Shown in pieces: positions 3,601 to 62,400 of a stretch of DNA of 64,000 nucleotides; position 1 is the stretch's first letter; each line of letters starts with the position of its first letter. The DNA comes from Stegostoma tigrinum. Lineage: Eukaryota. The position numbers were made by a program, and so were the translations under genes. The notes under the pieces were generated by a model that was not told the origin of the DNA, made no database searches, and worked only from the letters and a program-made list of their open reading frames with translations. The stretch spans positions 12,264,837 to 12,328,836 of the forward strand of contig NC_081374.1 in assembly GCF_030684315.1 (NCBI RefSeq). The letters run 5' to 3'.

Positions 3601-4465
3601 GGAAGGGCAGCTGTGACCCACTGCACACCCACACTCTGCACTGCACCCCTTCCTCGCCATAGCTCCAAGCCCCGTTCTCCATGAACCTTCGCTCTCTAGT
3701 TGCCTGGGTGCAAAGACCTTACTGGACCTGGTGTGTCATACCACCACCTCCCAGCCGACGCTGCTGCTCACAGGAGCTGCCAGTCCACGATGACCCCCCA
3801 AAGTAAGTACCTGAGTGGTACTTAATGATTTTTCTGAAGAAGGGTCTTGACCCGAAACGTCAGCTTTCCTGCTCCTCTAATGCTGCTTTGCCTGCTGTGT
3901 TTATCCATGTTATCTCAGATTCTCCAGCATCGGCAGTTCCTACCATCTCAGTACTTAATGCAGCTGGCTTTGCCTAAAAGACAGGTGGAGGGGGCACTCT
4001 TGTGGCACAGTGGTAATGCCCCTACCCCTAGACCAGAAGGCTAAGTCCCCAACCTGCCCCAGAGTTGTGTAATAACATCTCTGAGCACAGAGATAGAAAC
4101 ACAGATTAAATAGGGGGTGGCCTAGCTGGCTAATTAGCCTTTGGGCAAGACCACTGTCCCCACATTTAAATACCCCTCTAGGATCTGATTAACATTGTTC
4201 CATTATTGCATTAACAGTTTCCCTTTTGTCTTGGTTTCCTCAGGAGGATACAACTGTGATGTATTCCACTGTGAAAGTGGTACCCAAAGCTGACTTGGAA
4301 AGTACTTACATTAACCTGCAGGATCTTCAATGTCAAGGAACAGCTAAAGACCAAAGTTCTTCAGACTCTGTAGAATATTCCACGATTGTCTTCAGATCAC
4401 AACGAAATAATCCAAAAGAGGAGCCACGTGTGCTTTCTCCAGGCAATGTCAACAATATGTCGTAA
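630..4465 (+). CDS. CD300/pIgR-like inhibitory receptor, paralogue 1, 3' part only (exons 630-682 and 4244-4465; upstream exons lie outside the window)
   Basis: Two phase-compatible exons encoding a cytoplasmic tail. Their layout and sequence match the last two exons of the complete gene at 12302-26125. The family call comes from that paralogy, since no Ig exon of this gene is in the window. Confidence 0.75.
1057..1088 (+). ncRNA. Minimal hammerhead ribozyme-like motif from a second Penelope-like family, probably degenerate
   Basis: CTGATGA-A-GAGTC-atctg-GACTC-GAAAC; perfect 5-bp stem II with a sequence different from the main family. Confidence 0.5.
1472..2430 (-). mobile_element. Degenerate CR1-type LINE 3' fragment with a younger + strand CR1 3' end nested at about 1793-2010
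   Basis: ORF 2260-2448 (KANQMLAFIARGFE...LIQLY); the nested piece ends in TGTACTTTTCTATGTTCT. Confidence 0.7.
3834..3863 (+). ncRNA. Minimal hammerhead ribozyme motif in a Penelope terminus (3828-3950)
   Basis: CTGAAGA-A-GGGTC-tt-GACCC-GAAAC-GTC. Confidence 0.6.
4244..4465 (+). CDS. Paralogue 1 terminal exon with ITIM-type motifs VMYSTV, STYINL, VEYSTI
   Basis: Acceptor ttggtttcctcag|GAG. Reads EDTTVMYSTVKVVPKADLESTYINLQDLQCQGTAKDQSSSDSVEYSTIVFRSQ...NMS*. Aligns with exon 25946-26125. Confidence 0.85.
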   Translation, partial: EDTTVMYSTVKVVPKADLESTYINLQDLQCQGTAKDQSSSDSVEYSTIVFRSQRNNPKEEPRVLSPGNVNNMS

Positions 4466-6094: not shown

Positions 6095-7217
6095 GATAAT
6101 AAAATGTGAGGCTGGATGAACACAGCAGGCCAAGCAGCATCTCAGGAGCACAAAAACTGACGTTTCGGGCCTAGACCCTTCATCAGAGAGGGGGATGGGG
6201 GGAGGGAACTGGAATAAATAGGGAGAGAGGGGGAGGCAGACCGAAGATGGAGAGTAAAGAAGATAGGTGGAGAGAGTGTAGGTGGGGAGGTAGGGAGGGG
6301 ATAGGTCAGTCCAGGGAAGACGGACAGGTCAAGGTGGTGGGATGAGGTTAGTACGTAGATGGGGGTGCGGCTTGGGGTGGGAGGAAGGGATGGGTGAGAG
6401 GAAGAACCGGTTAGGGAGGCAGAGACAGGTCGGACTGGTTTTGGGATGCAGTGGGTGGGGTGGAAGAGCTGGGCTGGTTGTGTGGTGCAGTGGGGGGAGG
6501 GGACGAACTGGGCTGGTTTAGGGATGCAGTAGGGGAAGGGGAGATTTTGAAACTGGTGAAGTCCACATTGATACCATTGGGCTGCAGGGTTCCCAGGCGG
6601 AATATGAGTTGCTGATCCTGCAACCTTCGGGTGGCATCATTGTGGCAGTGCAGGAGGCCCATGATGGACATGTCATCTAAAGAATGGGAGGGGGAGTGGA
6701 AATGGTTTGCGACTGGGAGGTGCAGTTGTGTGTTGTGAACTGAGCGGAGGTGTTCTGCAAAGTGGCCCCCAAGCCTCCGCTTGGTTTCCCCAATGTAGAG
6801 GAAGCCGCACCGGGTACAGTGGATGCAGTATACCACATTGGCAGATGTGCAGGTGAACCTCTGCTTAATGTGGAATGTCATCTTGGGGCCTGGGATAGGG
6901 GTGAGGGAGGAGGTGTGGGGGCAAGTGTAGCATTTCCTGCGGTTGCAGGGGAAGGTGCCGGGTGTGGTGGGGTTGGAGGGCAGTGTGGAGCGAACAAGGG
7001 AGTCACGGAGAGAGTGGTCTCTCCGGAAAGCAGACCGGGGTGGGGATGGAAAAATGTCTTGGGTGGTGGGGTCGGATTGTAAATGGCGGAAGTGTCGGAG
7101 GATGATGCGTTGTATCCGGAGGTTAGTAGGGTGGTGTGTGAGAACGAGGGGGATCCTCTTAGGGCGGTTGTGGCGGGGGCGGGGTGTGAGGGATGTGTTG
7201 CGGGAAATGCGGGAAAC
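6095..7217 (-). mobile_element. Penelope-like retroelement, 5'-truncated (GIY-YIG endonuclease region plus 3' terminus)
   Basis: ORF 6411-7292 contains CNRRKCYTC and NVVYCIHCTRCGFLYIGETKRRL...FAEH; the terminus carries a hammerhead motif. Confidence 0.9.
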
Positions 7218-7410
7218 AATGTGTTTAACAAGGGGATAGGAGCAGCAGATTGATAATCTCTGCCCATCTTCTGATGGGAATATGCACACCATACCATTAG
7301 TTATTTTCGTATTTCTGTTCCTTTCTGGAATTGGATATCCAGATACAACAATCTTAACTGTGGCCTAACCCCACTGTCTGTGAGAACGGTCACTGTAACA
7401 GTTTCCATCA

Positions 7411-12067: not shown

Positions 12068-12231
12068 TGCACATGACAGAGGAAAGAAGCTACCAAAGTT
12101 CGGAATTTAAAAAACAACTTCCTCAAACTGGAACTGTTTACATCAAAATTGGGAAACAGTCTGTTTTATTGACTCTTAGCCTGCGCATACAAGGAAAATA
12201 TTTGCAATTCTATAAGGAAGTAAATGATTCA
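12068..12231 (+). promoter_or_regulatory. Putative leukocyte/myeloid-type proximal promoter of paralogue 2
   Basis: CACATGA (M-box) 12070-12076, GAGGAA 12079-12084, GAGGAAGT on the - strand at 12117-12124, TTTGCAAT about 12201, TATAA 12211 overlapping AAGGAAGT 12214-12221. All lie within 240 bp of the ATG. Motif evidence only. Confidence 0.4.
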
Positions 12232-12301
12232 GCACAGACCATTAAAGAGACACAGAGATACATGTATAACACAGAAAACTGTGGATAACTTCACTGGAAC
12301 C

Positions 12302-12341
12302 ATGAAGTTCACTGCACTGCTGGTCCTCAGTCTGATATCAA
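12302..12341 (+). CDS. Paralogue 2 exon 1, leader peptide MKFTALLVLSLIS
   Basis: accATGa Kozak-like context, hydrophobic core, phase-1 donor A|gtaaga. Confidence 0.85.
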
Positions 12342-15300
12342 GTAAGATTTTTCTCTTCTATATTTGGAATCACTGCTCTCATTTATGTAGTGTCTTCATC
12401 TTAGAAAATTGGCTCAAACTTCTTAACAAAGAAGGAAAAGAAACATTTTTTTCTGTGTGAAAGGGGAAATTGGGTGTTCTGATCACTAGCTTTGTTGAAG
12501 AGACAGCTTTAAATAGAACCCCTCCCTGCAGTGTGGAAATAGGTTGCTAATCAGAGAAGGAGTTGATGAGGGCAAGGGTTTTAACTGTGGAGTTCCAGAA
12601 AGTTGGACCTAATTGAAAACAGACCTATTAATGGCACAGTGGGAGCGGACGAAGCTAGATTCGGAGAAGTAGAATTCCCTCAGGGAAGGGAACAGTAGTG
12701 TATTGTAGGACATCACAGGAATTTGAGGAGATTGGTACAAGCTATTAAGGAATGTACTAGCCAGAATTGTAACAGAGGAAAGTTCAATTGAAGCATCAAA
12801 GAAGGCACTGGATGGTTATTTGTACAAAAGTCATGTGCAAGAATATGGAGAAAAACAGGAGATTTGGCACAAGGTAATGATTCTCATTTGAAGAGTTAGT
12901 TCAAGTACAGTGAGTGAATAATACTGTTGTATCAGTGATAATGGGAACTGCAGATGCTGTAGAATCCAAGATAACAAAGTGTGGAGCTGGATGAACACAG
13001 CAGGCCAAGCAGCTCCTGCGATGCTACTTGGCCTACTGTGTTCATCCAGCTCTACACTTTGTTATCTAGAATAATACTGTTATTCTGTTGTGTAATCAAA
13101 AGGACCACTGAACAAAACACATATCCTGCCTTCCAGGGGAAGAACCATTTGAATAATTGTAGTAACCAGAACAGTCAATGTTAAAACCAAGCAGAAGCTT
13201 CCTTCATCACTTGAAGTCATCATGATAGCTCTATAGATCAATCTCATAATCATTTATAGGCAGTACCTCTATGGATTTGGAGTGATGCACTAAATTGCAC
13301 AAAGCCCTTATTGACTGGCTTCTGATCCTTGCTAGATTCATCCCAGATGGGTTCCATGTCTCATTTCTCAAGCCGCATTAGCCTTGTTGCTCTTAGAACT
13401 GATTTTTGGGTTCCTGATGTCCAAAGAACAAAAACAGAGGACTAATGGGCATTTCTTTGTTATTAGGTGCAAGGGATAGACACATGGCAGATGCAATATA
13501 CTGTAGATAAGTGTGAATTAATGCACTTGGAGAGAAGAACAATACCAATGAGGAGGAACACAATAACCTGAATAGAACTACTGAGGGGGTGGGGGTGTGC
13601 ATGACCTAAGGATCCTGGGGGGGTGCCCATTCATTCAGGCAGCAGAGCAAGTTGACAAAGCAGTTAGGGATTCTTGGATGTGTAAATAGTCACACTGAAC
13701 AGAAAAAGAGAAAACCATGCTAAACCTTTACTGGGCAGATGATATGCTTCAGCTGAAGAACTGTGTTAAATTCTGGGACCACACTTTAGGAGCGTCAAGG
13801 AGCGGACCAAGGCACAGACATTCACCAGGTTGATATCAGGGGTGATGGTGGTTGTTTATGTGAAGAGATTAGAGAAGCTTGTCTTCTGTAGAGAGGTTGA
13901 GCAATTTAAGCCTGCCCCGTCTGGAGTTTAGAATAATGAGAGGAGATCTAGTTAGCAAAGTAGACAGAGAAAGGATTTTTCATTTGGGCAATGTAGAATG
14001 AGGGGTCATTTTTTTAAGATAGAGAGTAGCAAATTTAAAACAGAAGTGAGGAAAAATTATTCCTCTCAAATGGTTGTGAACCTGTGGCCGAACCCAAAGC
14101 AAGGTGGATCCCCGAGCATTGAATAAATTTAAGGAGAATGACAGAGTTTTAATTAGTAACGAGTTGAAGTCTCATGGAGAGCAAGCCAGAAAGTAGATCC
14201 GAGGCCAAGATGAGATCAGCCATGATCGTGTTCAATGGCGTTTCAGGCCCAAGGGGCTGAATGGTCTATTCCTGCTCCAAGTTCTTACGTTCTTAAATTC
14301 GATTGTTGTTCTTTAGTGCAGGTTAGGGGAAACTGATCCAGGTACTGAAAACTAGAAAGGATTTTGATGCAGCAAGTAGGGAAAAATATGTCATTTGGCA
14401 AGTAGATTTGTAACCAGTGATTTAAAATTATCAGTTTAAACATTAGTGGAGAAATGAGGAGGAATTATTTCGTAGAGAAGATTGTTGGGATCTGGATTGC
14501 ATTTCCTGAAGTAGTAAGGAAGTCAGATTCCACAGAAATGTTCAAAAGGCATTTGGATACCTATTTGAAGATGAGGGTTATAGAGGAATCCAGGCGTGGA
14601 TTAATTTGACCAGCTCTTTAAGGAGTTGCCGTACACACAAAAGGCCAAATGACCCCTGCTTTGCTCTAAGATTTGATGATTCCATTCTCTTCCAGCACCT
14701 TTACTTCTTCCCCTTGGTGAAATGTTTGCTGTTGTTTTTTGTGACTTTTAAAAACAATTGTCTAAAATTGATTGTTGTAATACAATTCTCACTTATTTGT
14801 AACATTTCATACAATAGCTTCATGGACAGAAATCACATGGACAGTGTTGAAAGCTGCAGCAGGGAAAAATATCACTGTCAAATTCCCGTGGAAATGGAAT
14901 CAAAGAGATGTTGCAATCTGGTGTAAAACATATTCGGAAACTCGCTGCAATGTTATAGCAAGCTTTAAGAAGGGTATGAACAAAAGTTTTCAAAGTAAAA
15001 CATCCATCTCTGAAGCACATGGGTCAATTTTTATTACCATGCAACCTCTTTGGAAGAATGATACAGGAACATACTGGTGGGGAGCAGCAGATCAACAGTC
15101 CATCATTGTTTCAGATGGTACATTATTGAAGGTTTTTACAGGTAAGAGTATTTCAGAAGATTATAAGGCTGCTAATGTCATCTGGCTGCAGTAACACTAG
15201 GCCTACTAAACTTCAGGGTGGTGCTATCAAGTCAAGGCTGATCCCCTCAGAACTAAAACCGTAAGACTCAAAGAAGAGCACTTTGCCCTATGACCTGTAA

Positions 15301-18300
15301 AAGGGAGTGTGAGGTGTAACTACCTCTTAGCAACTTCTAGCGGTTAAATAAAACAAATCCCAGGCACCCACTTTAAAATCAACAAGTCGCAATATATTTA
15401 CCAACTCTAACACTGAACAATTTAACTAAACTATTAACAAATTGAATAAATCCTTTCTGGTACTAACTATTCCTGAATAAAATGAGATTCTAATGGTGTG
15501 CTGTTCCAATAAATTTAAGTCCTACTTATATCAAAAAAAAATTAGGATTTAGTCTCTCAAAGTTACAGCCAGGTTACGGAATGTTCTGTGCCTTCTCCAT
15601 TGATTCTTTTATCAGGAACATTAACCAGTTGTGCCATTGGTACTTTTGTCATTTAGATGGTGCTTTCCCGAAGATATAGAAGGGGCTGTGAGGGCCAGCA
15701 ATTCTCTCTTCGGAGCTGAGGGCTGTTAGCTGTGGCAGGTAGTAGCTAGCACTGCTGTCTTTGTCCACTGCCCCCTCCTTTTTATACCCTTGATGACATA
15801 TCAATATTCCTTACAATAAGGTTGGTCCTATGTTGTCAAAACCAAGAGATTTAAATTTGAGATAACAAAGTGTGGAGCTGGATGAACACAGCAGGCCAAG
15901 CAGCATCTTAGGAGCACCAAAGCTGACGTTTCGGGCCTAGACCCTTCATCAGAAAAGGGTCTAGGCCCGAAACGTCAGCTTCTGTGCTCCTAAGATGCTG
16001 CTTGGCCTGCTGTGTTCATCCAGCTCCACACTTTGTTCTCTGTATACTTGCAAACCTTTGAGCTGCTGTACACAGACATCTACTTTAAATTTCTAAGTAC
16101 AGAAAAAACACATGATCTTGTAAAGAGATCATGCAATGCTTCCAACCCCCACCATTCACCTAGCATTTTACAAACATCAAATTCTAACTACATGCCTCCC
16201 AATTCACAAGTACTTTATCCAACTTCACAACACTGATGTGCTACAGAATATGAAAAGATCAACACAGGTCCCTGTATCCAAACGTTTCTGCAAAATTGTG
16301 TGACTAAACAACTTTGAGTAGGTGACCATCTCACTGATGTTGGCGTAAGACACTGCTACCATAGGATTCATACATGAAGGGTTTTGGTCAAAGATATGTT
16401 CAATTTTGTTGAACAACAAGTAGGTTTATTACATATTGCTTAATAGCTAGTTACATTGCATCTATGATACCTGATGGTCTCCTGTGAGAAATTAGCCTCA
16501 ACTTGAGAGTGAGCACACTTTACTGCCACTGAAACATTCTGGTACACAACTTAAAATAAGTGATCGACTCCATATCTGGTGTGGTAACCTAAAACAAGAA
16601 CTAGCCTGCTCCTCCCAGAAACAGTCCTTTAAGCATTTTCATTGGAGTTATGGAGAACAAGAAGGAATTACCAAACTTGGACAAACATATCTCCTAGGTA
16701 TAGTGGAAAATATACACAATTAAAAATGTAACATGAACAACAAAGAACACAAGAGCTTTCAATGCTCACACTGGGCTCTATGTCTCTAAAATTCTGTTTG
16801 TATTTCGAAACAGAAAACATTTTTAACATTCTCAAAAGTTACCTCATTTATTTTAGTTTTTTTGTAATTAAAAATATTCAGCTTTTCTTCATTCTTTAGT
16901 TTTAATGACTTTCTTTTTCACATTTACCAACAGATTCAGAGGAATCCATCCCAACAGAGATCAATAATGTAATGGAAAATACCACAACTGTTTCGTGTCT
17001 GTACACACAACAGGAGGAGATAGACTATAAGAAATTCTTTTGTAAAGTAACCTCTGTAAATAAGTGCACTGTTATCGCCGATTCAAACAAAAATATAGGA
17101 AACGAGTATAAAGGGAGAGTTTCAATCATGACAAACAAGTCTCAAAATTTTACAATCACCATGAGTAATACAAGTAAAGCAGATGAAGGACAGTACTGGT
17201 GTGGATCAGTAAAAATAGATGACGTAAAGATCACACAGGTTAAAAACCTGACAATTGCTAGTGGTAAGAATCAACTTGTAATTATTATAATTCAGTTGGT
17301 CATCCATAGCACTTGACAGAATAGACACACTTGGTCACTACCAGTGTTCATGCTTCACAAGCACCTTCTCCAGCCCCATGTCATTTCACCCTTACAACAC
17401 GTCCTTCTATTACTCCACTATATCTCAATGTGTTTCCTTCACTACCCGTTCTTGCCTCAAGGACGTCCTGTATGAATAAGTTCAGTATTTTGCAACTTCC
17501 ACATTCTGATCATTCTCCAGGTAAAGAATATTCTGCCTGAAGTTCTTATTGAATATTTAGTGACTATTTTAGATTAAAGACGTCCAGATTTTGCCTCCAC
17601 TGTAAATGTGGACATCCCTGCTTTTCTCGTTCACAGGGACATGGGTAAGGCCAGGTTTTATTGTCCATCCCAAATCACTCTTGAGAAGGTGATGTTGCTA
17701 TCTTCTTGACCACTGCTGTCACATGAGGTAGGAACACCTCCTCAAAGGGTGGAGTTGTTAGGGACAGAGTTCTTGGATCTTAATCAGTGACAGTCAAGGG
17801 TGTAACCCTAAATCTTGATAGGATGCTAAACATTCACGTACCCTAGACTTCAGTTAAATTATTATTTGCTGTAATATATAACACATAGCAAATGAATCAG
17901 TATCTGAAATTAGATATAAAACAGACATTGTAATTACTTTCAAATAATACCCGTTCAGGACGAGCAATCCATGTCCCTGGTTAATTACTCTTTCTTCCAG
18001 TTCTTGGCCCAGTGCCGTATATCACTCCAGTCATGGAAGAAGGAGGGAAAAGATATTGAGGCAGATTTGTGGTAAATTCACCCACATTTTTGAATGGATC
18101 CTCAAGTGCCACACTGGACAGTGAGGTGTACTGTCGCATTTCCATGCACAAGAGGCAAAGTTTGCAGAGGGTGTGGTCATGGCCAGGTGATTTCAGCCAC
18201 TCTGGGTGGGATCTTCCCTGCTCTGCATGGTGGTGATTGGGGTGGTAGGGGAGGGGCATGCAGAGAGCTTTGGTTCAAGTCACCTCTGACTGCTGTCCCA

Positions 18301-21300
18301 CCTTCTGGATGAATTTCCCTGGGCAGGACCCCATAGGAATCATCTACCCACTTCCGTGGGGCTATAAATAATAATGAAGCCAACTAGGAGTTGACAGAGC
18401 AGGTATTTTCAAAAGCCAGTGGCATTTTTCTTGGTGCTGGACCATCCCATTCTCCATGAACCAGTGAGGCACAGGTCCAGCAACTATGTGCAGTTGATCT
18501 CCAAATGACAGGCCTTGAGGCTATGACAGTCTCCACCCAATCCCTAATTCATGGAAACAAATAGATATAAGAGCCACTTTTACAGCACTAATTCCCCTCC
18601 CCTCTGAGGGCCCTGACAGATGTAGACTTCCTTTATTTTTAAATTCCCCCAAGGGCTGCTAGGAACTTCTCCATTTCACACTGCCCTAACATTACCCGCT
18701 GCCTTTCCTCCCACTGGCTCTCCCTCAAATCCAACTCTCCATCATTTCCTTTTCACAAGATTTCATGACCCTATAAAGACAAAGACATTCATTCAACCAA
18801 TTCTTGTTTACCATCCTGAATTTGAGCAATTGCCTTAAGAAATCTTAAACAGCTGGTGTTCAGAATTACTGAATATATTCCCCCTCCACCAATTGCCTTC
18901 AGGAATCTTAAACAGCTAGTGTTCAGAATTACTGAATATATTCCCCCTCCACCAGTGAACCTCCCATACCACTCAACATACCCCCCTCCCTCCACTTCAT
19001 CCTCACCAGTCATCATTCCCCTTCCTCTCCTCCTGTATCCCTCCAAAACAGAACCCTTCCATTCACCTGCACCAGTCACTACCCTCCTCTGCTTCATTCC
19101 CAAAACCAAATAAACCGCTCCCTCTTGCCACACAACTGCCAAACATCCCCCCCTCCCATCCACCCCCAATCAACCTCTACGGTGCTTTCTTTGGTCGTGT
19201 TAGAAGGAGCAAAGTTATGCTTGTATTGTTGATGGTTTTCTGTTATTCATCCAGTTATTCATTCATGTTTCTTTGCAACAGAGGGGATTCCAGCAGTTTC
19301 CATTGACACCCCAAGGTAACATTTTAATAGTTTTCTTAGAATAATCATTTTTGGGTCATTCTGATTGAAGTTGATGTATACTTCCGGTCTCTTGACCATA
19401 CACAGCGATGTTAGGTAATAAAAACGGGCTCTTACCCTTTTTGGTGCCATATCTTTCCTCACGATACTGCTCCTAATTGTTTTTCCTTAATTAATACCAC
19501 TGTCAAAGGCAGGTAGCAAAGTTTACATAGGTCATGGCAGCAATCATTCAACTGATAATAAGCTTTGTATTCCCCCTTATTTCTCATTTCTGTTCACTGT
19601 GAGAAAGCTGCACTTCACCCTAGTGCATTATTCGTTCACAAGCTGTGGGCATCATGGACAAGGCCAGCATTTATTTCCCAGCCTTCACTGACCTTGAGAA
19701 GGTAGCAGTGAGCCACACTCTTGAGCTGTTGCAGCCCACATGGTGTCAGTACTTCCCACAATTTTATTATGGAAGGGAGCTCCAGGATTTTGAAGGAATA
19801 TAATTCAGTGTCAAGATGGTGCATGTCATGGAGGGAAAGAGGCAGATGGTGGTGCTGCCTTTATCTTTAGAAGGGGTAGACGTTATGGGTTTGGAAGGTA
19901 CTGCTAAAGAAATTTTTACAGGTTGCTGCAGTGCATCTTCATGAGAGAGGTAGAGGCACAGGAATGTAACGCATCTTCCAATTCAGAGATAATTAGGTTT
20001 AAAACCAATTCCTCTATCTAGTTTACATCCAAAAAGTGTTTGTACATTTTTGCATTGTTCTATTGAGTCCTCAAAGCTTTAATTTTATCAGTTCTGCTTC
20101 ATTTTCTTTTAGCAATATCACTCCGCAAAAATGGTACATCATCCTTGCTGTTTTGTTGGGACTGTTAATCTTATCGCTGCTGATTCTGTTTACGTGGAAA
20201 AGAAAAGTGACAAAACGAGCAGGAAATGAGGGTATGTAGCCAAGGAAATATTTTTCTGCAATAAATCAGCATGTAAAATCAGAAACTGATTCCTGAACAG
20301 ACAATAGTAAAATGTTGATATAATATTGAAAATACTTACAATCCAATCAGAAACAAATAGGGCAAAATTGTCACTGTTCTACACAAGTGATTTGGGAAGT
20401 AGGACCAGGAGCAAAGGTACAAAGTAGTGTGTAGGTTTGGCTACCAGAATCCTACCCGCCTCAGAGTGCTCTTGCACAAGGTGGGTTAATGTGGCAGAAG
20501 CTATCACCACATACGTAACTTATACTCAAGTAGGACCATTAGAGTGACAACCTGGCAAGTCTAACTTAAGTATATTTTTGACCTAGGTCCAAGAGCAACA
20601 GGTTACTGAAGAACAGCTCCTGGAGCTAATGCTGAGGGCCATCGATACCTCCAGTCATTTAACCCACTGGGATGTTTGGACTCAGTTTGTGCTATTTGCT
20701 TACAACGACAATTAAATGGCGAAATTACTTCTCCAAAGTCTGACCTGTTGCAATCATTTATTAGGCTTCTTGTGCATAATGTGTCCAACTTCTTGGCCAG
20801 GAGGCTTGGGTTCAAAGATGCATACTAACATCTTTCATCATCATTGTATCAAAATTCTGGAACTCCCTTCCTTTCAGCTCTGTGGAGTACGTACTCTAAA
20901 TGAGTTGCAGTAAGTCAAGAAGACGCGTTCTCCAGGCACACAGGGATGCTCATGGAATGTTGGCCTCACATCCCATGAACAAATATTCTCAGACAACAGT
21001 GACATGGTGCCAAATCAGGATGCCGTTGTAGGTTGGAGGGTAACTTGAAGGTGGTACTATTCTGGTGCAAGACCACCTTTGTCCTTGTGAATGGTAGAGG
21101 TTATGGATTTGGAAGGTGCTGTTAACGGTGATGTGGAATAGCTTGTCAGTGCAACTTATAGCTGATACACAGTTTGCTGGAAAAGATGGGAGTGAACATT
21201 TAAAGCTTCAAATGTTTTTACAGTATATAATCTCAGAATTATTTCAAAATCCATCATCCACTATCTTTGTTAAACATTTTATAAAGAATGAAATGAGTAA

Positions 21301-24300
21301 AATCAAAACATCTAGAGTAAACTGATGATCGTATATACACTTTAGAAAAACATCTGAAGTAATTTAATTGATTGAAGGCTGAGATTTGGTCTTGCTGATT
21401 TGGATTAAACTCTAGCATGCCTCCATAATTTACAATATAATTTGAATTTCTATCTTGTAAGATATGCATTGCATTGGAAGCAGTGAAGTGCTTGCATGCC
21501 TCAGAGTTGTCACACAATGTTTTCAGAAACAGGTTACCAACATTAGCAGATGAAATTAGCGGAGTTGAAATTATCAAGTTGAAAGACAGAGCAAACCAAA
21601 AATTTTCCTTAACATCTTGAAGGAAGTGGTTTACCATCATACAGCTCGGAAATAGCAAGTAATTGGGGCTTCCTGTAGTAGGTTAGAAGAACGTGGTTGG
21701 CTTGATGCGAGTGGCTGAGCGTAAGTGTGAAAGAGAGTGAGAGATTGAGGTTTTTGTAGTGGTTTATATTTCAAACTGGAATAAATCAAAACTATTGTGG
21801 CAAGAATGAATGAAAGTAACCTTGTTGGAAGTGAATCATTTCTTATTTACTTTGCAGCTAAAAATGAAAATCCAGAAATCCCAGACATGACTAGAAAGGT
21901 AAGAATAGAAGGTATCTAAAACTATGGCTATTGTTCCACTTATCTCACAATTACGCTCTGAAGCATTACATTTATTGGGTGTTGAAAACCGCCATCTCCA
22001 ATTCCCCTCCAAATCATACACCATCCTGATGTGCAACTATATTGCTGCTTATTCACTGCTACTGGATTAAACCTAGAAACTCACTTCCTAACTGCACTGT
22101 GGATGTATCCACGTCTGAAAGACTGCAGCAATTCAAATCAATCAGCTCACCATTATATTCTCAAGGGCAATAAAAGATAGGCAATAAATGCTGGTCTAAG
22201 CATCTGATGACAGAATAGAAATTGAATTTTGACAAGATACTCCAGTGATAGACTCTAATAAGGTTCAACGTCATGGGATTAAAGGAAAAATTGAAGTAAA
22301 TGTGGAATTACTCTCATCCTCATAGACATACAGGCAAGCGTTGCAGCAAGAGGTTCTGCTCAGAGAAGTTGACTTGAATCTCGACAGTCTGTCTAGCATT
22401 GGTTCACCCTTAATTCAGTTAGGGAAGGAATTCGAGTATTTGTCCCAGTGCCAGTGAAGGGATATGTTCCAAAACAGGATGGTGTGAGCCTTGGAGGTGA
22501 ACCTGCATCTGATGCAGTTTAATTTCTAGGTGGTAGGCTGCTGATTTGGAAGCAGCTATTAGACCATAAGACGTAGGAGTGGAAGTAAGGCCATTCGGCC
22601 CATCAAGTCCACTTCGCCATTTAAACCATGGCTGATGGGCATTTCAACTCCACTTCCCTGCACTCTCCCTGTAGCCCTTGATTCCTTCTGAGATCAAGAA
22701 TTTGTTGATCTCTGCCTTGAAGGCATCCAACGTCCCGGCCTCCGCTGCATTCCGTGGCAATGAATTCCACAAGCCCACCACTCTCTGGCTGAAGAAATGT
22801 CGTCTCATTTCAGTTTTAAATTTACCCCCTCTAATTTTAAGGTTGTGCCCATGGATCCTAGTCTCCCCCCGCTAACGGAAACAACTTCCTAGCATCCACC
22901 CCTTCTAAACCATACATTATCTTGTAAGTTTCTATTAGATCTCCCCTCAACCTTACATGAGTACAATCCCAGGATCCTTAGCCATTCATCATACATTAAA
23001 CCTACCATTCCAGGGATCATCCGTGTGAATCTCCGCTGGGCACGCTCCAGGGCTAGTATGTCCTTCCTGAGGTGTGGGGCCCAAAATTGGACACAGTATT
23101 CTAAATGGGGCCTAACTAGAGCTTTATAAAGCCTCAGAAGCACATCGCTGCTTTTATATTCTAACCCTCTTGAGATAAACGACAACATTACATTCGCTTT
23201 CTTAATTACGGACTCTACCTGCAAATTAACCTTTAGAGAATCCTGGACCAACACTCCCAGATCCCTTTGTACTTCTGCTTTGCGAATTTTCTCACCATTT
23301 AGAAAATAGTCCACGCCTGTATTCTTTTTTTCAAAGTGCAAAACCTCACATTTACTCACATTGAATTTCATCAGCCATTTCCTGGACCACTCTCCTGAAC
23401 TGTCTAAAATCTTTCTGCAGCTTTCCTACCTCTTCAGTACTACCTGCCTGTCCACCTATCTTTGTATCATCAGCAAACTTCGCCAGAATGCCCCCAGTCC
23501 CTTCATCCAAGTCATTAATGTATAAGGTGAACAGCTGCAGCCCCAACACTGAACCCTGCAGGACACCACTTGTCACCGGTTGCCATTCCGAAAAGGAGCC
23601 TTTTATCCCAACTCTCTGCCTTTTGTCAGACAGCCAATCCTTAATCCAAGCCAGTAGCTCACCTCGAACACCATGGGCCCTCACCTTGCTCAGCAGCCTC
23701 CCGTGAGGCACTGTATCAAAGGCCTTTTGGAAGTCTAGATAGATAACATCTACTGGGTTTCCCTGGTCTAACATACTTGTTACCTCTTCAAAGAATTCTA
23801 ACAGGTTTGTCAGGCACGACCTCCCCTTAGTAAATCCATACTGACTTGTTCTAATCTGACCCTGCACTTCCAGGAATTTAGAAATCTCGTCCTTGACAAT
23901 GGATTCTAGAATTTTACCAACTACCGAGGTTAGGCTAATCGGCCTGTAATTTTCCATCTTTTGCCTTGATCCTTTCTTAAACAGGGGGAGTTACAACAGC
24001 AATTTTCCAATCATCTGGGACTTTCCCGGACTCCAGTGACTTTTGAAAGATCACGACCAAAGCCTCCGCTATTTCCTCAGCCACCTCCCTCAGAACTCTA
24101 GGATGTAGCCCATCAGGGCCAGGAGTTTTATCAATTTTTAGATCTTTTAGCTTTCTAGCACTTTCTCTTTTGTAATGCCTACCATACTCAACTCTGCCCC
24201 CGGCTTTCCCTAATTGTTGGCATACTACTCATGTCTTCCACTGTGAAGACTGACGCAAAGTACTTATTAAGTTCTTCAGCTATTTCCTTATCTCCCATCA

Positions 24301-26125
24301 CTCGCCTTCCAGCATCAGTTTGGAGCGGCCCAATGTCTACTTTTGCCTCTCATTTGTTTCTTATGTATTGAAAGAAGCTTTTGCTATCATTTCTAATATA
24401 ACTAGCTAGCCTACCTTCATATTTGATCCTCTCCTTCCTTATTGCTCTCTTTGTTATCCTCTATTTGTTTTTGTAAGCTTCCCAATCTTCTGATTTCCCA
24501 GTGCTCTTGGCCACCTTATAGGCTCTCTCTTTTTCTTTGATATATTTCCTGACTTCCTTTGTCAGCCATGGCTGTCTAAACCCACCCCGGATAATCTTTC
24601 TTTTCTTTGGGATGAGCCTCTGTACTGTGTCCTCAATTACACCCAGAAACTCCTGCCATTGTTGGTCTACTATCTTCCCCGCTAGGCTCTGCTTCCAGTC
24701 GATTTTCATCAATTCCTCTCTCATGCCCCTGTAATTATCTTTATTTAACTGTAATACCATTACATCCGATTTTGCCTTCTCTCTTTCAAACTGCAGACTG
24801 AACTCTACCATATTATGATCGCTGCCTAAGTGCTCCCTTACTTTAAAGGTCTTTTATAAAGTCTGACTCATTACATAGCACTAAGTCCAGAATAGCCTGC
24901 TCCATCACAAGCTGTTCCAAAAAGCCATTCTGCAAACATTCCATGAATTCCTTTTCTTTGGATCCACCGGCAACGTTATTCACCCAATCCACCTGCATAT
25001 TGAAGTCCCCCATAATCACCATTGAATGTACTTTACTGACAATGCTCTCTCCAAGTTGAGTAGAGAGAGTCACTGGGACATTTTGTGCATCCTGTTCAAT
25101 GTGCTGAAATGCAATGGCAAGAAAAGTGAGAAGAACTGTTTCTTAGCAAGTTGCTGCAGTGAATTTTAAAGGTGGTATACATTAACAGCTCTGTGTATCA
25201 GTGATGGAGCAAATATATGCTGAAGGTAACAAAAACAAGAAATGCTAGAGGTCAGCAGGATAGCACCATCGATAGCGATGGAAAAAATTGATCTACTGAG
25301 CTTCTCCAGCATTGTGTTTTTATTTCAGATCTCCAGCACCGCAGTATTCCATGTATTTGAATATTGAGGGTGTTTAATGGAGTGCCAAACATGTAGGTGT
25401 TTTGTCCTGGACAGTGCCACATTTCTTAAAATATTATTGAAGCTGCACTGAACAAACTAGGGGATGGGAGATATTCCAATATGATCACTCCTAACTTATG
25501 CCTTGTAGGCTGACAGGCAGCCAGAGTTTGGGAACTCTGTTTTGAGTAAGTGCAGTTTTGCATCCCCACTCTCCATCATCAAGGTCAGTTAGTTCAGTTG
25601 GCTGGACAGCTGGTTGCAAAGCAACAGCCACAGTGTCAGTTCACTTTTGATACCAGAAGCAGTCACCGACCTCAATCTCTCCCCTCACCCAAGTCATCAT
25701 GACCCTCAGGTTAAAGACCTTCTAATAAACACACAGCAGTCTTTCCCTCTGCAACTATGGTGACATGTTTTTACTGAGAGCTGCAATAGCTGTAGGGTTG
25801 ATTCAGTTCAGTTCCTTGACAATGGTAACTCCCAAATATTGATGGTGGGAGTTTCAGTGAGGATAATGTCATTCAATGTCAATTTTCATACTTTAGCACC
25901 ATGTCTTTGTTACTGGTCCAAATGTGATTGAGATGTTTATTTTAGTCTGACAGGGAAATGGAAGACACTGTCATTCATTCCACTATGACCCTTCAATCAT
26001 CTGCTCAAACAAAGGAAGATTCTGTAACTTATGCTAATTTAAAGGATTTGAAACAGCAAAAAGAGAACATCAACATCAATGCTTCAGAATCAGTGGAGTA
26101 TGCAGCACTGCAATTCAAATCATAG
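12302..26125 (+). CDS. CD300/pIgR-like two-V-domain ITIM receptor, paralogue 2; join(12302-12341,14818-15141,16934-17263,19282-19315,20113-20231,21858-21898,25946-26125), 1068 nt, 355 aa
   Basis: All introns are GT-AG and the phases chain 1,1,1,2,1,0 into one open frame. Encodes a signal peptide, two V-set domains with the extra Cys-x7-Cys pair typical of CD300/pIgR/TREM, a hydrophobic TM and two ITIMs. Confidence 0.88.
12933..13068. mobile_element. Short fold-back Penelope-terminus insertion
   Basis: Inverted arms of the Penelope end; TSD GAATAATACTGTT at 12916-12928 and 13069-13081. Confidence 0.8.
13500..14296 (+). mobile_element. Degenerate CR1-type LINE 3' fragments
   Basis: Nucleotide similarity to the other CR1 3' ends; ends in CCTGCTCC...TTCTTACGTTCTT. 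Confidence 0.6.
14818..15141 (+). CDS. Paralogue 2 exon 2, Ig V domain 1 (atypical, lacks the B- and F-strand Cys)
   Basis: Acceptor acaatag, donor G|gtaaga. Motifs GKNITVKF, IWCKTYSETRC, IFITMQPLWKNDTGTYWWG, LLKVF. Confidence 0.88.
15859..16041. mobile_element. Short fold-back Penelope-terminus insertion
   Basis: Near-perfect inverted repeat with arms of about 85 bp, centred near 15951. Confidence 0.85.
16934..17263 (+). CDS. Paralogue 2 exon 3, Ig V domain 2 (four Cys, CD300/pIgR type)
   Basis: Acceptor ccaacag, donor G|gtaaga. Motifs TVSCLY, KFFCKVTSVNKC, GRVSI, FTITMSNTSKADEGQYWCG. Confidence 0.92.
18827..18952. repeat. Tandem duplication, 2 x 63 bp
   Basis: CAATTGCCTT...TATATTCCCCCTCCAC occurs twice, with 3 mismatches. 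Confidence 0.9.
19282..19315 (+). CDS. Paralogue 2 exon 4, short stalk (EGIPAVSIDTP)
   Basis: tttctttgcaacag|...CCAAG|gtaac. 34 nt, phase 1 to 2, exactly the shift needed to link the V2 exon to the TM exon. Confidence 0.75.
20113..20231 (+). CDS. Paralogue 2 exon 5, transmembrane (WYIILAVLLGLLILSLLILFTW followed by KRK)
   Basis: Acceptor attttcttttag, donor G|gtatgt. 22 uncharged residues followed by a basic stop-transfer cluster. Confidence 0.9.
21858..21898 (+). CDS. Paralogue 2 exon 6, cytoplasmic (AKNENPEIPDMTRK)
   Basis: tttactttgcag|...AAG|gtaaga. 41 nt, phase 1 to 0. Confidence 0.8.
22560..25020 (-). mobile_element. CR1-type LINE, about 2.5 kb, from endonuclease to RT, frameshifted
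   Basis: ORFs with VIMGDFN, NYRPISLTS, YLDFQKAFD, QGSVLG, FADD and RPHLEYC; lies in the last intron of paralogue 2. Confidence 0.93.
25946..26125 (+). CDS. Paralogue 2 terminal exon with ITIMs VTYANL and VEYAAL
   Basis: Acceptor tttattttag|TCT. Reads SDREMEDTVIHSTMTLQSSAQTKEDSVTYANLKDLKQQKENININASESVEYAALQFKS*. Not in the ORF track (too short from its first ATG). Confidence 0.85.
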   Translation, partial: SDREMEDTVIHSTMTLQSSAQTKEDSVTYANLKDLKQQKENININASESVEYAALQFKS

Positions 26126-27660: not shown

Positions 27661-28800
27661 ATAGAACATAGAACATAGAACAGTACAGCACAGAACAGGC
27701 CCTTCAGCCCACAATGTTGTGCCGACCATTGATCCTCATGGATGCACCCTCAAATTTCTGTGACCATATGCATGTCCAGCAGTCTCTTAAATGACCCCAA
27801 TGACCTTGCTTCCACAACTGCTGCTGGCAACGCATTCCATGCTCTCACAACTCTCTGCGTAAAGAACCCGCCTCTGACATCCCCTCTATACTTTCCACCA
27901 ACCAGCTTAAAACTATGACCCCTCGTGCTAGCCATTTCTGCCCTGGGAAATAGTCTCTGGCTATCGACTCTATCTATGCCTCTCATTATCTTGTATACCT
28001 CAATTAGGTCCCCTCTCCTCCTCCTTTTCTCCAATGAAAAGAGACCGAGCTCAGTCAACCTCTCTTCATAAGATAAGCCCTCCAGTCCAGGCAGCATCCT
28101 GGTAAACCTCCTCTGAACCCTCTCCAAAGCATCCACATCTTTCCTATAATAGGGCGCCCAGAACTGGACGCAGTATTCCAAGTGCGGTCTAACCAAAGTT
28201 TTATAGAGCTGCAACAAGATCTCACGACTCTTAAACTCAATCCCCCTGTTAATGAAAGCCAAAACACCATATGCTTTCTTAACAACCCTGTCCACTTGGG
28301 TGGCCATTTTAAGGGATCTATGTATCTGCACACCAAGATCCCTCTGTTCCTCCACGCTGCCAAGAATCCTATCCTTAATCCTGTACTCAGCTTTCAAATT
28401 CGACCTTCCAAAATGCATCACCTCGCATTTATCCAGGTTGAACTCCATCTGCCACCTCTCAGCCCATCTCTGCATCCTGTCAATGTCCCGCTGCAGCCTA
28501 CAACAGCCCTCTACACTGTCAACGACACCTCCGACCTTTGTGTCGTCTGCAAACTTGCTGACCCATCCTTCAATTCCCTCGTCCAAGTCATTAATAAAAA
28601 TTACAAACAGTAGAGGCCCAAGGACAGAGCCCTGTGGAACCCCACTCACCACTGACTTCCAGGCAGAATATTTTCCTTCTACTACCACTCGCTGTCTTCT
28701 GTTGGCCAGCCAATTCTGTATCCAAGCAGCTAAGTTCCCCTGTATCCCATTCCTCCTGACCTTCTGAATGAGCCTTCCATGGGGAACCTTATCAAATGCC
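27661..28800 (-). mobile_element. Young 5'-truncated CR1-type LINE (RT C-terminal part intact, 312 aa)
   Basis: ORF 27750-28688 (GVPQGSVLGP, FADD); tail (TATGTTC)n. Confidence 0.95.
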
Positions 28801-31800
28801 CCAATAGTTTAATGTCCTGCATTTGAAAGTGCAGAGGAACAGCCTATTATTTCTTCATGTGCAAAAACACGATAAATTAAGATTAGTGTATGGAGGAATT
28901 ATAGCTGTAATATCCACAATGCTATTGTAGAGAATGAAATATTCATTTGTGCAACCTGAAACTGTGATTCCATCTCAAATATTATGTCAAATTGCTTTCT
29001 AACTCTGAGTGTGCGATTTTAAAGCATTGCTAATGTCTTGAGACTATATGGTGTACAGCATAAATTATTTTTAAATGTAAAAATGCCTTAACAAGGACAG
29101 CATTTAATAAAGAACAGATTCTTTGTCCTGGGCAGCAATTTTTGCCAAGTATTTCCTGCATATTTTATTGATTTCCAGTATCTTCACTTTTACTTCTGTT
29201 AAATATAACGTGCAATTTCATTTGTCAACCAGATAGAACGCCATTCAAATTGTTCTGCCTATGAAAGTTATCTTAATTGCACAGTCCATTACTTTGATAT
29301 ACCTTGGGAAAATATTTTTAAATAAACTGTGCATCATTTTGTTTTCAGGTAAAATTATGCACAGCAGAAATTCCTTGAATCATCTCAGCCATTATGGTGC
29401 AAAGTGGTTTATCTAATCAGTCAAGGATGTTGGAAGCCTTTCCAAATCTGGCTAAGCCCGGTTTCTGTCACAGCGAAGCCGGCTGAGAATAGTTGAGTGA
29501 GTGATAGTCTCTACAACAGCTGAGATACTGCAAACACCTGGGCAACTAGATAAGTCACAAGGACAGGCCAGCTTTTCTTGAATTTCTAAGTAAATTCTAC
29601 GAATACAACCTTTTTACTACAAATCGTTGGACGTGAGTGCTACTGGCAAGGCCAGTATTTATTACCCATCATTAATTACCCAGACGTTAGTTACGAATCA
29701 GCCACATTGCTGTGTGTCTGGAGTTACATACAGGTCAGACCAAGTAAGGTGGTAAATTAATGGATGTTCCTCAAATACATTAGTGAACCAAATGGATTTT
29801 TACAAAAATTGACAGTAGCTGCCATAAGGGTGGTATCAATTTTTTTTTACATCCCATGGTGAGATTTGAGCTCATGTCTCCAGAACAATAACCTGGTGTC
29901 TGGTTTACTAGTCCAGTGATATGCTCATGACATCAACACCTCATCGTCTGATCTTGGTGAGAAGGAAACGAGGAACAGATTGAGGTATTGTTTACTTTTC
30001 TGTCCCATGAAATGATAATTAGTCCCTCCGAATCTATTTACTACAGTGATATCTATTTTTTCTTGGCTTTTCCTTCCCAGTCTGAAAAGCATTTTCAGTT
30101 TTTAGGCCATTTGTTCAAGAAGCACCCAAGTAATCTGGACTAGAGAGATTTTACTACCAAGAAAGCAAGATCCAGAATGAAGCTGGGCTTCTTATGGCAA
30201 AATATTTCCTTCCTGCTGGCACAGACTTGATACCAAAACGGTTCATTGCTCAGAGACTGTGACACAGTGCTGCAGGAATGACTTTGCTTCATACCCAATT
30301 TCATACAGCACTGTGGCTTTTCACACAAGGAAAAACTGAAGGGCTGTAGTTGTCAACAGCCAAGTGAGTCTAGTGACCAGATTAGTCCATTTTGGACAAA
30401 TGATAAATAAGGAGTTTGCTTTGTATCTCATTGGCTTAAGGGTGGAACAAAGTTGAAGATTTTGAACCTTTAAAAAAACTTTAATGTTTATGCTGAGATG
30501 ATAGATGGGGAAGAATGTGAGCACAGAACCTCACCACACAAGTTGACATAGATCACATGTCCAGACATAAATTGGAAAAACACTTAAGGGTACAGCAATT
30601 AAAGTGTCCTTTAAAAATCTGGATATGGTTCAAGTACTAAATTCCATTTTTTTTACAAACGTCCATACATAAAACATTAGGTAGCTTCAAAGAGAGAAGA
30701 ATAAATATTGCAAATTCCCCAGAGGTAAAGAGCAAAGGTAAGTGAAGTGAAAACAAACTGACAAGATGACTTGGGAGGGAACCAAGACTGTTAATTGCTT
30801 CCTAAGCATTTAGTAATATTAAGATAATAAAAACAATTTGCATTTTTACAATGAGTTAAATAGCCTGGAAGAAATGTGGCACTGAGTGCGTGTGTGCATT
30901 TTTACAGTGATTTATGCCTCTCAAAATATCCCAAAATACTGTGACCAGGGAGGTTCCTGAAAGGAATTACCATTGTTTATATGTAAATAAATAGCCCAAG
31001 TGATAAACTTGTAGCTTTCAAAATCAGTAAGGTTTATACTTCATAATCCTACTTTAATTATTGAAGCAATACTATACACAACACGAACAATGGGCAAAAC
31101 CAGCAACACATTTCTGCTGCAGTAGGTGAGCACTAAACATGAGCAACAGGAAAATCGAGTGCTTTCGTAAAATATACTGGAGCACAAAAATGCATCTGAC
31201 ATTCATGGTTGATAGCGGATTTTGATAATGGCTCTATCACCAATAAAGATTTGGGTTAGCAGATTATGTCAAACTTTGATCACAGCGCTTCCACTCAATG
31301 CTGGATGATTTTCAGTTTCTCAGCACTGACATACAATGCACAAGAAACACGTTTTTAAATCTCTCAGAAAAGATAAAATGCATATAAAAAAGAATAGTTG
31401 TTCAGGAGACCTTTATTCAGGTTAAATGACAATTTTCCATCTACTTCTCTTCACAGTACAGCAATGAAGAAGGTTGTATGCAACAGAAATGATCAAATAA
31501 TATTCAGACTAATGTTTTCTCTTCTTTCAACATATCAAGTATTACTTAAATAGCTGAAGTGGAGTAAGACTTTTTTTGATCTCACCCAATGGCCTTTTAG
31601 ATTTTCAAGCAAATGCCTTGTCCTTTGAGAAATCAGGCTGAAAATAATGGAGTAGTACTAGTGAGGAACTGCATCACCCATTTTTAAATTATCCACTAAC
31701 CAAATATCCAGCTAAGATGACAGCAATGACCTTGCATTTACAGAGGTAATACCATACTGCAGAGACAGAGACAGAAACTTTCACTATCTTAAATTGATAG

Positions 31801-39806: not shown

Positions 39807-62400
<22,594 letters not shown>

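What the first reader, a model, noticed from the sequence alone, without database searches (positions are those of the whole stretch)
14818..15141. Ig V domain that has lost both canonical cysteines (C to F, C to W) but keeps the CD300-type second pair
Seen: the B-strand Cys position reads ITVK-F (TTC, 14883-14885) and the F-strand DxGxYxC motif reads DTGTYW-W (TGG, 15078-15080). Each codon is one base from a Cys codon. The core Trp and the WCK-x6-C pair remain, the frame is open and the splice sites are intact. Domain 2 has all four Cys but Phe in place of the core Trp (KFFCK). Inference: paired loss with bulky aromatic replacement looks more like a compensated, repacked core than random decay, and would give a membrane-distal domain held only by the non-canonical disulfide. 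Some Ig domains (for example CD2 domain 1) lack the canonical bond, but I do not recall this in CD300/pIgR-type domains.
Basis: partly seen in the sequence, partly recalled or inferred. Interest (0 to 1): 0.7.

Follow-up and report, generated by a model that had tools for sequence, protein, structure and literature searches.

The report
Shark receptor lost Ig disulfide stepwise
In this zebra shark immune receptor the two cysteines that normally staple an antibody-like domain are replaced by phenylalanine and tryptophan; the change is real and transcribed, likely arose in two steps, and a frog receptor family carries the same pair, so it is likely a repeatable repacking of the core rather than decay.

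Summary
Observation confirmed. Exon 14818-15141 is domain 1 (D1) of a two-V-domain pIgR/TREM/CD300-type inhibitory receptor. The B-strand Cys is Phe, the F-strand Cys is Trp, and the C-C' pair is kept. Both codons stand in two DNA runs and two spliced contigs of the same coded organism and in a close relative.

The loss was not paired. Bamboo and epaulette sharks have Phe but keep the F-strand Cys; 11 other chondrichthyan species keep both. Phe likely came first, then the orphan Cys became Trp.

D1 of a frog two-V-domain receptor has the same Phe/Trp pair, likely by the reverse route: Trp in 14 of 14, Phe in 8 of 11. A shark+frog clade is rejected (AU p=0.012).

AlphaFold2 gives a V fold, but only with an alignment. 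D1 evolves fast (dN/dS 0.51, not significantly below 1), so relaxed constraint is not excluded. D2's missing core Trp is ancestral.

V domains without this bond are known (CD2). The scan earlier noted only the converse loss (C-C') in skates. New variant of a known kind.

The parts
12302..12341 (+). Exon 1, start codon and signal peptide (MKFTALLVLSLIS)
   Evidence: matches the N-termini of orthologues; its junction to exon 2 was not seen in the contigs laid
14818..15141 (+). Exon 2, V-set domain D1 without the B-F disulfide (the finding)
14883..14885 (+). Phe22 (TTC) at the B-strand Cys position; shared with three hemiscylliid species and organism B
14919..14948 (+). Core Trp34 and the retained C-C' cysteine pair (Cys35, Cys43)
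15078..15080 (+). Trp87 (TGG) at the F-strand Cys position; shared with organism B, Cys in hemiscylliids
16934..17263 (+). Exon 3, V-set domain D2 with four Cys and Phe at the core-Trp position (ancestral trait of this gene)
   Evidence: junction from exon 2 seen in the X5 and X6 contigs
19282..19315 (+). Exon 4, short stalk
   Evidence: boundaries read by hand from the printed bases; the 33-letter insert in the X5 and X6 contigs fits it
20113..20231 (+). Exon 5, transmembrane helix without a charged residue
20587..20760 (+). Alternative exon joined to exon 5 in run X5; stop at 20607-09 gives a short tail with no ITIM-like motif
   Evidence: one contig of one run
21858..21898 (+). Exon 6, cytoplasmic
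   Evidence: RefSeq model XP_059509195.1; conserved in orthologues
25946..26125 (+). Exon 7, cytoplasmic tail with ITIM-like VTYANL and VEYAAL, stop codon
   Evidence: conserved in orthologues

Best explanation
This exon encodes the membrane-distal V domain of a transcribed two-domain pIgR/TREM/CD300-type receptor, which lacks both canonical cysteines, likely lost them in two steps, and is predicted still to fold, held by the C-C' disulfide and an aromatic core. Shown: both codons, the spliced exon, and the states in relatives. Inferred step 1: in the common ancestor of zebra, bamboo and epaulette sharks the B-strand Cys became Phe; the second disulfide of this family made the loss tolerable and left a buried free thiol on strand F. 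Inferred step 2: on the branch to the zebra shark and organism B that orphan Cys became Trp, removing the thiol and filling the space beside Phe22 and Trp34. Frogs likely took the two steps in the reverse order and ended with the same residues, which suggests position-specific packing limits the choice. The long isoform likely signals as an inhibitory receptor through its ITIM-like motifs; the ligand is unknown.
For: Both codons in runs X1, X2, X5, X6; exon 2 joined to exon 3 in spliced contigs. Organism B (3 of 3 runs, 3 studies) has Phe (TTT) and Trp (TGG), with no stop or indel in the exon. D1 states: F/C in 4 rows (3 hemiscylliid species), C/C in 14 of the 18 rows aligned to the query (11 chondrichthyan species and the coelacanth). 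Zebra shark groups with hemiscylliids at 100/100. Zebra-vs-hemiscylliid differences hit 10 of 43 conserved columns against 29 of 64 variable ones (one-sided Fisher p=0.016; 0.028 and 0.007 at two other thresholds). AlphaFold2 with 19 rows: pLDDT 87.9, V topology; nearest solved folds NKp44 and TREM2. Frog D1: Trp at F in 14 of 14 rows that have the strand, Phe at B in 8 of 11, Cys in Ascaphus, Pelodytes, Mixophyes. AU test on both domains rejects zebra shark + frogs as one clade (p=0.012) and carpet sharks + frogs (p=0.017); fewest changes 4 at B and 2 at F. Chance that a second lineage picks F and W among one-step neighbours of Cys: 0.006-0.02; 0.03-0.11 if only aromatics are allowed.
Against: dN/dS of D1 against organism B is 0.51 (9.5 silent, 18.5 replacement changes; p=0.09 for a difference from 1), and these changes do not significantly avoid conserved columns (4 of 43 against 13 of 64, p=0.10). 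D1 is 63-64% identical to hemiscylliids while D2 is 78-83%; terminal branch 0.38 against 0.067 (quick tree). Pfam V-set score barely passes (26.5 bits, cut-off 26; D2 42.8). Single-sequence AlphaFold2 gives pLDDT 48.5, so the good model leans on Cys-bearing rows. A D1-less isoform is annotated in Chiloscyllium punctatum (P0013). On D1 alone the AU test did not reject shark + frog (p=0.175). The model's side-chain packing could not be inspected. In run X5 the spliced contig ends in a tail without ITIM-like motifs.
Confidence: 0.64

Rival explanations
1. D1 was remodelled under positive selection (new ligand, or escape from a pathogen that binds it); loss of the disulfide is part of that adaptive change rather than a tolerated accident.
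For: Long D1 branches on the carpet-shark stem and the zebra shark branch; dN 0.077 against organism B is well above the per-chromosome medians of 0.015-0.034 published for zebra versus whale shark (PMC13100897, passages; used for scale, organism B is coded); 8 Trp in D1 against 1-4 in the four-Cys rows; paired activating-type relatives with a charged transmembrane residue exist.
Against: dN/dS is below 1 on the one pair that could be computed. D1 is less conserved than D2 also in 14 of 15 pairs of sharks that keep both Cys. Hemiscylliid D1 is as conserved as D2 (0.90 against 0.91). No ligand data.
Confidence: 0.18
2. D1 is becoming dispensable in the zebra shark lineage and is drifting; the second Cys was lost because nothing constrained it, and the domain is poorly folded or often spliced out.
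For: dN/dS not significantly below 1; 9 of 13 polarised differences are derived in the zebra shark, some at conserved positions; marginal Pfam score; D1-skipping isoform annotated in a bamboo shark; low single-sequence confidence.
Against: Frame open in both species; Trp34, Cys35, Cys43, the DTGTYW corner and strand G are kept; changes since hemiscylliids avoid conserved columns (p=0.016); the exon is included in both spliced contigs; frogs keep F/W in seven genera.
Confidence: 0.15
3. Both cysteines were replaced together as one compensated event.
For: Both replacements are bulky aromatics and the pair recurs in frogs.
Against: Single-loss states exist and are conserved: F/C in three hemiscylliid species, C/W in three frogs.
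Confidence: 0.02
4. The two codons are assembly errors or a private mutation of one animal.
For: Each codon is one base from Cys.
Against: Four runs of the same coded organism and three runs of a relative carry the same residues.
Confidence: 0.01

Closest known systems
Predicted chondrichthyan 'pIgR-like / CMRF35-like' two-V-domain receptors (XP_060701239.1 Hemiscyllium, XP_041051253.1 Carcharodon, XP_042198079.1 Callorhinchus)
   Same: Orthologous gene: same two domains, stalk, transmembrane helix and, in most, the same ITIM-like tail; 72% identical to the Hemiscyllium protein over its length.
   Different: Only the zebra shark and organism B lack both B and F Cys in D1; hemiscylliids lack one; the rest lack none. 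None has a tested function that I found.
Frog two-V-domain 'pIgR-like' proteins (P0033 Discoglossus, P0081 Ascaphus, P0100 Xenopus laevis, P0103 Bufo and others)
   Same: D1 with Phe at B, Trp at F and the C-C' pair retained; two V domains.
   Different: Separate clade; Trp is the shared state and Phe the variable one; transmembrane segment carries Arg and the tail is short. Orthology to the shark gene is unresolved.
Mammalian TREM2 / NKp44 / CD300 V domains
   Same: Best fold matches (NKp44 TM 0.74, TREM2 0.72-0.78, CD300a 0.72); C-C' cysteine pair.
   Different: These have one V domain; CD300 is described with two disulfides and a YWCR motif (PMC3031540, passages).
Tetrapod pIgR
   Same: Best sequence matches among solved structures (E 4e-16 summed over domains); tandem V domains.
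   Different: Two domains instead of four or five; the VNRH loop seen in pIgR D1 is absent.
CD2 domain 1 and other V domains without the B-F disulfide
   Same: V fold without the canonical bond; CD2 is named as the exception in PMC12051499 (passages). Disulfide-free scFv were evolved from an antibody naturally missing one Cys (PMC5734687, passages).
   Different: CD2-type domains have no C-C' bond and use mostly aliphatic residues at these positions (recalled, not tested); this domain keeps C-C' and uses two aromatics.
Skate modular domain immune-type receptors (MDIR)
   Same: Cartilaginous-fish multigene family described as similar to CD300, TREM and pIgR (as cited in PMC3031540).
   Different: The primary paper was not held and no MDIR sequence was compared, so identity with a named MDIR is open.

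Membership tests
Ig V-set domain | V-set profile match | tested here: met
   PF07686 26.5 bits, cut-off 26, E 8e-06
Ig V-set domain | Nine-strand V topology | tested here: inconclusive
   pLDDT 87.9 with alignment, 48.5 without; a prediction, not a structure
Ig V-set domain | B-F disulfide cysteines | tested here: not met
   Phe22 and Trp87
Ig V-set domain | Core C-strand Trp and DxGxY tyrosine corner | tested here: met
   Trp34, DTGTY
CD300/pIgR/TREM superfamily (broad) | C-C' cysteine pair | tested here: met
   Cys35 and Cys43; the bond itself is not testable here
CD300/pIgR/TREM superfamily (broad) | Closest sequences and folds are family members | tested here: met
CD300 proper | Single V domain with two disulfides and YWCR motif | tested here: not met
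   Two domains; D1 has one Cys pair and IWCK
CD300 proper | Linkage to a Tweety gene (TTYH2 neighbourhood recalled) | tested here: not met
   All 14 Tweety matches lie on C26 and C27, none on C25
Tetrapod pIgR | Four or five V domains and the D1 VNRH loop | tested here: not met
Tetrapod pIgR | Binds and transports polymeric Ig | not testable with these tools
   needs binding and transcytosis assays
TREM/NKp44 or pIgR chromosome neighbourhood | Linkage to NFYA (TREM cluster) or IL10 (pIgR cluster), both recalled | tested here: inconclusive
   NFYA at C25:9.86 Mb and an IL10-family match at C25:17.94 Mb, gene at 12.28 Mb: same contig, 2.4 and 5.7 Mb away
MDIR of skates | Sequence orthology to MDIR1-4 | not tested
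   no MDIR sequence or primary paper available
Inhibitory paired receptor | Uncharged transmembrane helix and ITIM-like motifs | tested here: met
   phosphatase recruitment untested; a short-tail isoform exists in X5

The most novel reading that the evidence does not exclude
Phe on strand B plus Trp on strand F is a position-specific, repeatable replacement for the canonical immunoglobulin disulfide in V domains that carry a C-C' bond. Sharks and frogs reached it independently, by opposite routes through viable single-Cys states, in the distal domain of related two-domain receptors, because the aromatic core is favoured over both the orphan thiol and other substitutions. Nature thus supplies all four states (C/C, F/C, C/W, F/W) for a double-mutant cycle on the most conserved bond of the Ig fold.
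Probability: 0.3. Interest if true: 0.58.

Novelty: new variant of a known kind. Interest (0 to 1): 0.38.

Why it matters
The B-F disulfide is the hallmark of the Ig fold. Exceptions are known, but intermediates and repeats are rarely in hand. Here natural proteins show both single-loss states and the same double-aromatic end state in two vertebrate classes. That makes a small, direct test possible of how an Ig core replaces its disulfide, and whether the family's second disulfide is what licenses the loss. It could inform design of disulfide-independent V domains. It does not change what is known of shark immunity: the receptor's ligand is unknown and the gene is one member of a fast-evolving cluster.

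Tried and rejected
Paired loss and assembly error: rejected.

D2's Phe for the core Trp as a second oddity: rejected, ancestral.

No RNA holder was listed on record; X5 and X6 are read as RNA only because their contigs join exons at the splice sites. Exon 6 had no cover in X5 or X6, and exon 7 lay outside the stretch laid: not evidence either way. The exon 1-2 junction was not among the pieces shown.

Search with D1 among longer proteins found only the window's own model (1 of 32 candidates). The Atlas look-up returned no result. Single-sequence folding failed. The D1-only AU test had too little power and one row (Heptranchias) was mis-cut. The 111-row tree is the quick version; the careful search did not finish. 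The profile comparison is circular (both alignments share rows) and was not used.

The survey (289 domains from 97 of 98 proteins searched; P0031 left out as a non-Ig hit; 236 with all four Cys, 2 FCCW, 5 FCCC, 2 CCCW, 3 with Tyr at F) is biased towards D1-like hits and is no family-wide frequency.

Paper searches showed no report of this domain or of the frog F/W domain in their listings. The library lacks most subscription papers, and four papers asked for were not held. No supplements were opened; alignments in supplements may already show these residues. No complex prediction was sent, as no binding partner is claimed.

Full report
What is there. Window 14818-15141 (+) is a phase-1 exon with intact splice sites and an open frame. 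It encodes a V-set domain that just passes the Pfam cut-off (26.5 bits against 26). Phe22 (TTC, 14883) and Trp87 (TGG, 15078) sit in the columns of the B- and F-strand cysteines; Trp34, Cys35 and Cys43 are present. A source-named record that matches the exon at 100% is XP_059509195.1 of Stegostoma tigrinum. That model fuses an upstream one-domain gene to this one. Mapped back, this gene has seven exons: leader, D1, D2, stalk, uncharged transmembrane helix and two tail exons with ITIM-like VTYANL and VEYAAL (four boundaries corrected by hand from printed bases). It lies at one end of the cluster found on contig C25 (11.71-12.28 Mb). All 17 of the 17 other V exons found there keep both canonical Cys.

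Is it real and transcribed. DNA contigs of runs X1 and X2 cover the exon without a difference. Runs X5 and X6 (two other samples, one study, kind not on record) each hold one contig that joins exons 2, 3 and 5, with an insert the size of exon 4, and covers both codons with a single synonymous difference at 14909. In X5 the contig continues into an alternative exon at 20587 that ends the protein after a few residues, without ITIM-like motifs. Contigs cannot show levels or exclude minor skipping.

History in sharks. Organism B (coded; 3 of 3 runs from 3 studies; about 92% identical) has TTT and TGG, so the same two residues, with no stop or indel in the exon. The full-length search returned 7 shark proteins and 2 weak teleost hits among 2203 candidates; the representative search added rays, a chimaera and the coelacanth. 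Of 18 rows aligned to D1, 4 rows (Hemiscyllium ocellatum, Chiloscyllium plagiosum, C. punctatum twice) have Phe at B and keep Cys at F; 14 rows keep both. The zebra shark groups with the hemiscylliids at 100/100. The simplest reading is Cys to Phe on their common stem, then Cys to Trp on the branch to the zebra shark and organism B. The single-Cys state is stable: hemiscylliid D1 is as conserved as D2 (0.90 against 0.91, 3 pairs). So the loss was not a paired event. D2 has Phe or Leu at the core-Trp position in all 17 chondrichthyan rows, so that trait is old.

The same end state in frogs. A tally of 289 domains from 97 proteins found 236 with all four Cys and one other FCCW domain (biased towards D1-like hits). 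It belongs to a frog family of two-V-domain receptors (17 hits among 4226 candidates, 15 of them frogs). One frog row has no D1. In the other 14, the F-strand position is Trp in all; the B-strand position is Phe in 8 of the 11 rows that reach it (Discoglossus, Xenopus laevis, Engystomops, two Bufo, Hyla, Leptodactylus, Dendropsophus) and Cys in Ascaphus, Pelodytes and Mixophyes. The C-C' pair is kept in those 11. On both domains (21 rows, one per species) the AU test rejects zebra shark + frogs (p=0.012) and carpet sharks + frogs (p=0.017); the tree needs at least 4 changes at B and 2 at F. On D1 alone the test did not reject (p=0.175). Both changes are one base from Cys, so some convergence is expected: 0.006-0.02 for a second lineage to match both among all one-step neighbours, 0.03-0.11 among aromatics. 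This is suggestive, from two end-state lineages, and was noticed after the fact.

Does it fold. AlphaFold2 with the 19-row alignment gives pLDDT 87.9 and nine strands in V order; the nearest solved folds are NKp44, TREM2 and CD300a/c. Without an alignment pLDDT is 48.5, so the model borrows from Cys-bearing relatives and says nothing on stability. Differences from hemiscylliids avoid columns conserved in 11 outgroup species (10 of 43 against 29 of 64; p=0.016), which fits continued structural constraint.

Results against. D1 evolves fast: 63-64% identity to hemiscylliids against 78-83% for D2. Against organism B, dN is 0.077, dS 0.152, ratio 0.51, not significantly below 1 (p=0.09), and those 17 replacements do not significantly avoid conserved columns (p=0.10). 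For scale, per-chromosome medians between zebra and whale shark are dN 0.015-0.034, dS 0.061-0.111 (PMC13100897, passages). A D1-less isoform is annotated in C. punctatum. D1 is the less conserved domain also in 14 of 15 pairs of four-Cys sharks, so speed alone is not tied to the lost bond. Relaxed constraint and positive selection both remain open.

Mechanism. Most likely (0.64) the family's C-C' disulfide made loss of one canonical Cys tolerable; the orphan Cys was later replaced by a bulky aromatic that removes the thiol and fills the core. The codons, splicing and states in relatives are shown. The order of events, the packing, the C-C' bond and inhibitory signalling are inferred. Cysteines of this family are labile both ways: S. 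canicula D1 lacks the C' Cys and most neobatrachian D2 rows lack the C-C' pair while keeping B-F. No full domain in the shark or frog orthologue alignments has lost both pairs. Two earlier notes of this scan describe the converse loss in skates (unchecked AI notes).

Comparison with what is known. It works like a TREM/CD300/pIgR-type receptor but fails the stricter tests for CD300 (two domains, no second disulfide, Tweety matches on other contigs) and for tetrapod pIgR. NFYA and an IL10-family match lie on the same contig, 2.4 and 5.7 Mb away; their link to the TREM and pIgR clusters is recalled. V domains without the B-F bond are known: CD2 (PMC12051499, passages) and engineered scFv (PMC5734687, passages). 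Papers seen as passages only: PMC3031540, PMC12051499, PMC9321927, PMC5734687, PMC13100897, bioRxiv 10.1101/2022.10.17.512540; all others as search listings. Ten searches listed no report of this variant, but the primary MDIR paper was not held and no supplements were read.

Verdict. Real, transcribed and shared with a relative; stepwise rather than paired; likely convergent with frogs. A new variant of a known kind. Interest 0.38.

Noticed in passing
P0033, P0053, P0081, P0100-P0110 (frog proteins): Frog two-V-domain receptor family whose D1 has Trp at the F-strand Cys in 14 of 14 and Phe at the B-strand Cys in 8 of 11; in most neobatrachian rows D2 has lost the C-C' pair instead, so each domain keeps a different single disulfide.
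   Followed up: partly
window 20587-20760: Alternative exon joined to the transmembrane exon in run X5, giving a short tail without ITIM-like motifs; a possible non-signalling or decoy isoform.
   Followed up: partly
window 4244-4465 and 12224-12341: RefSeq model XP_059509195.1 fuses the upstream one-domain ITIM receptor to this gene, giving an impossible two-transmembrane protein; likely an annotation error.
   Followed up: partly
L007 (G000:C25:12235211-12235453) and L017 (G000:C25:11945601-11945837): Two V exons of the cluster carry an in-frame stop; L007 is a near copy of L006. L010 has lost the first Cys of the C-C' pair with a short deletion.
   Followed up: no
P0008 (Scyliorhinus canicula), P0005, P0028: S. 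canicula D1 has Phe for the C' Cys; Pristiophorus and Callorhinchus D1 have Leu for the core Trp.
   Followed up: no
P0013 (Chiloscyllium punctatum isoform X2): Annotated isoform that joins the leader directly to D2, skipping D1.
   Followed up: no
window 14820-15140: D1 has 8 Trp (hemiscylliids 6, four-Cys rows 1-4), including a WKW stretch in the B-C loop; could form an exposed hydrophobic ligand patch.
   Followed up: no
G000:C25:9.86 Mb and 17.94 Mb: NFYA and an IL10-family match lie on the same contig as the receptor cluster, which may reflect an ancestral TREM/pIgR chromosome.
   Followed up: partly
window 27753-28808 (-), 22892-25142 (-), 47289-48686 (-), 6414-7364 (-), 12930-13067, 15860-16041, about 44741-45560: LINE-like reverse-transcriptase fragments, two copies of another retroelement-like frame, short high-copy inverted repeats, and an assembly gap (818 N). 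Labels recalled from the translations, not tested.
   Followed up: no
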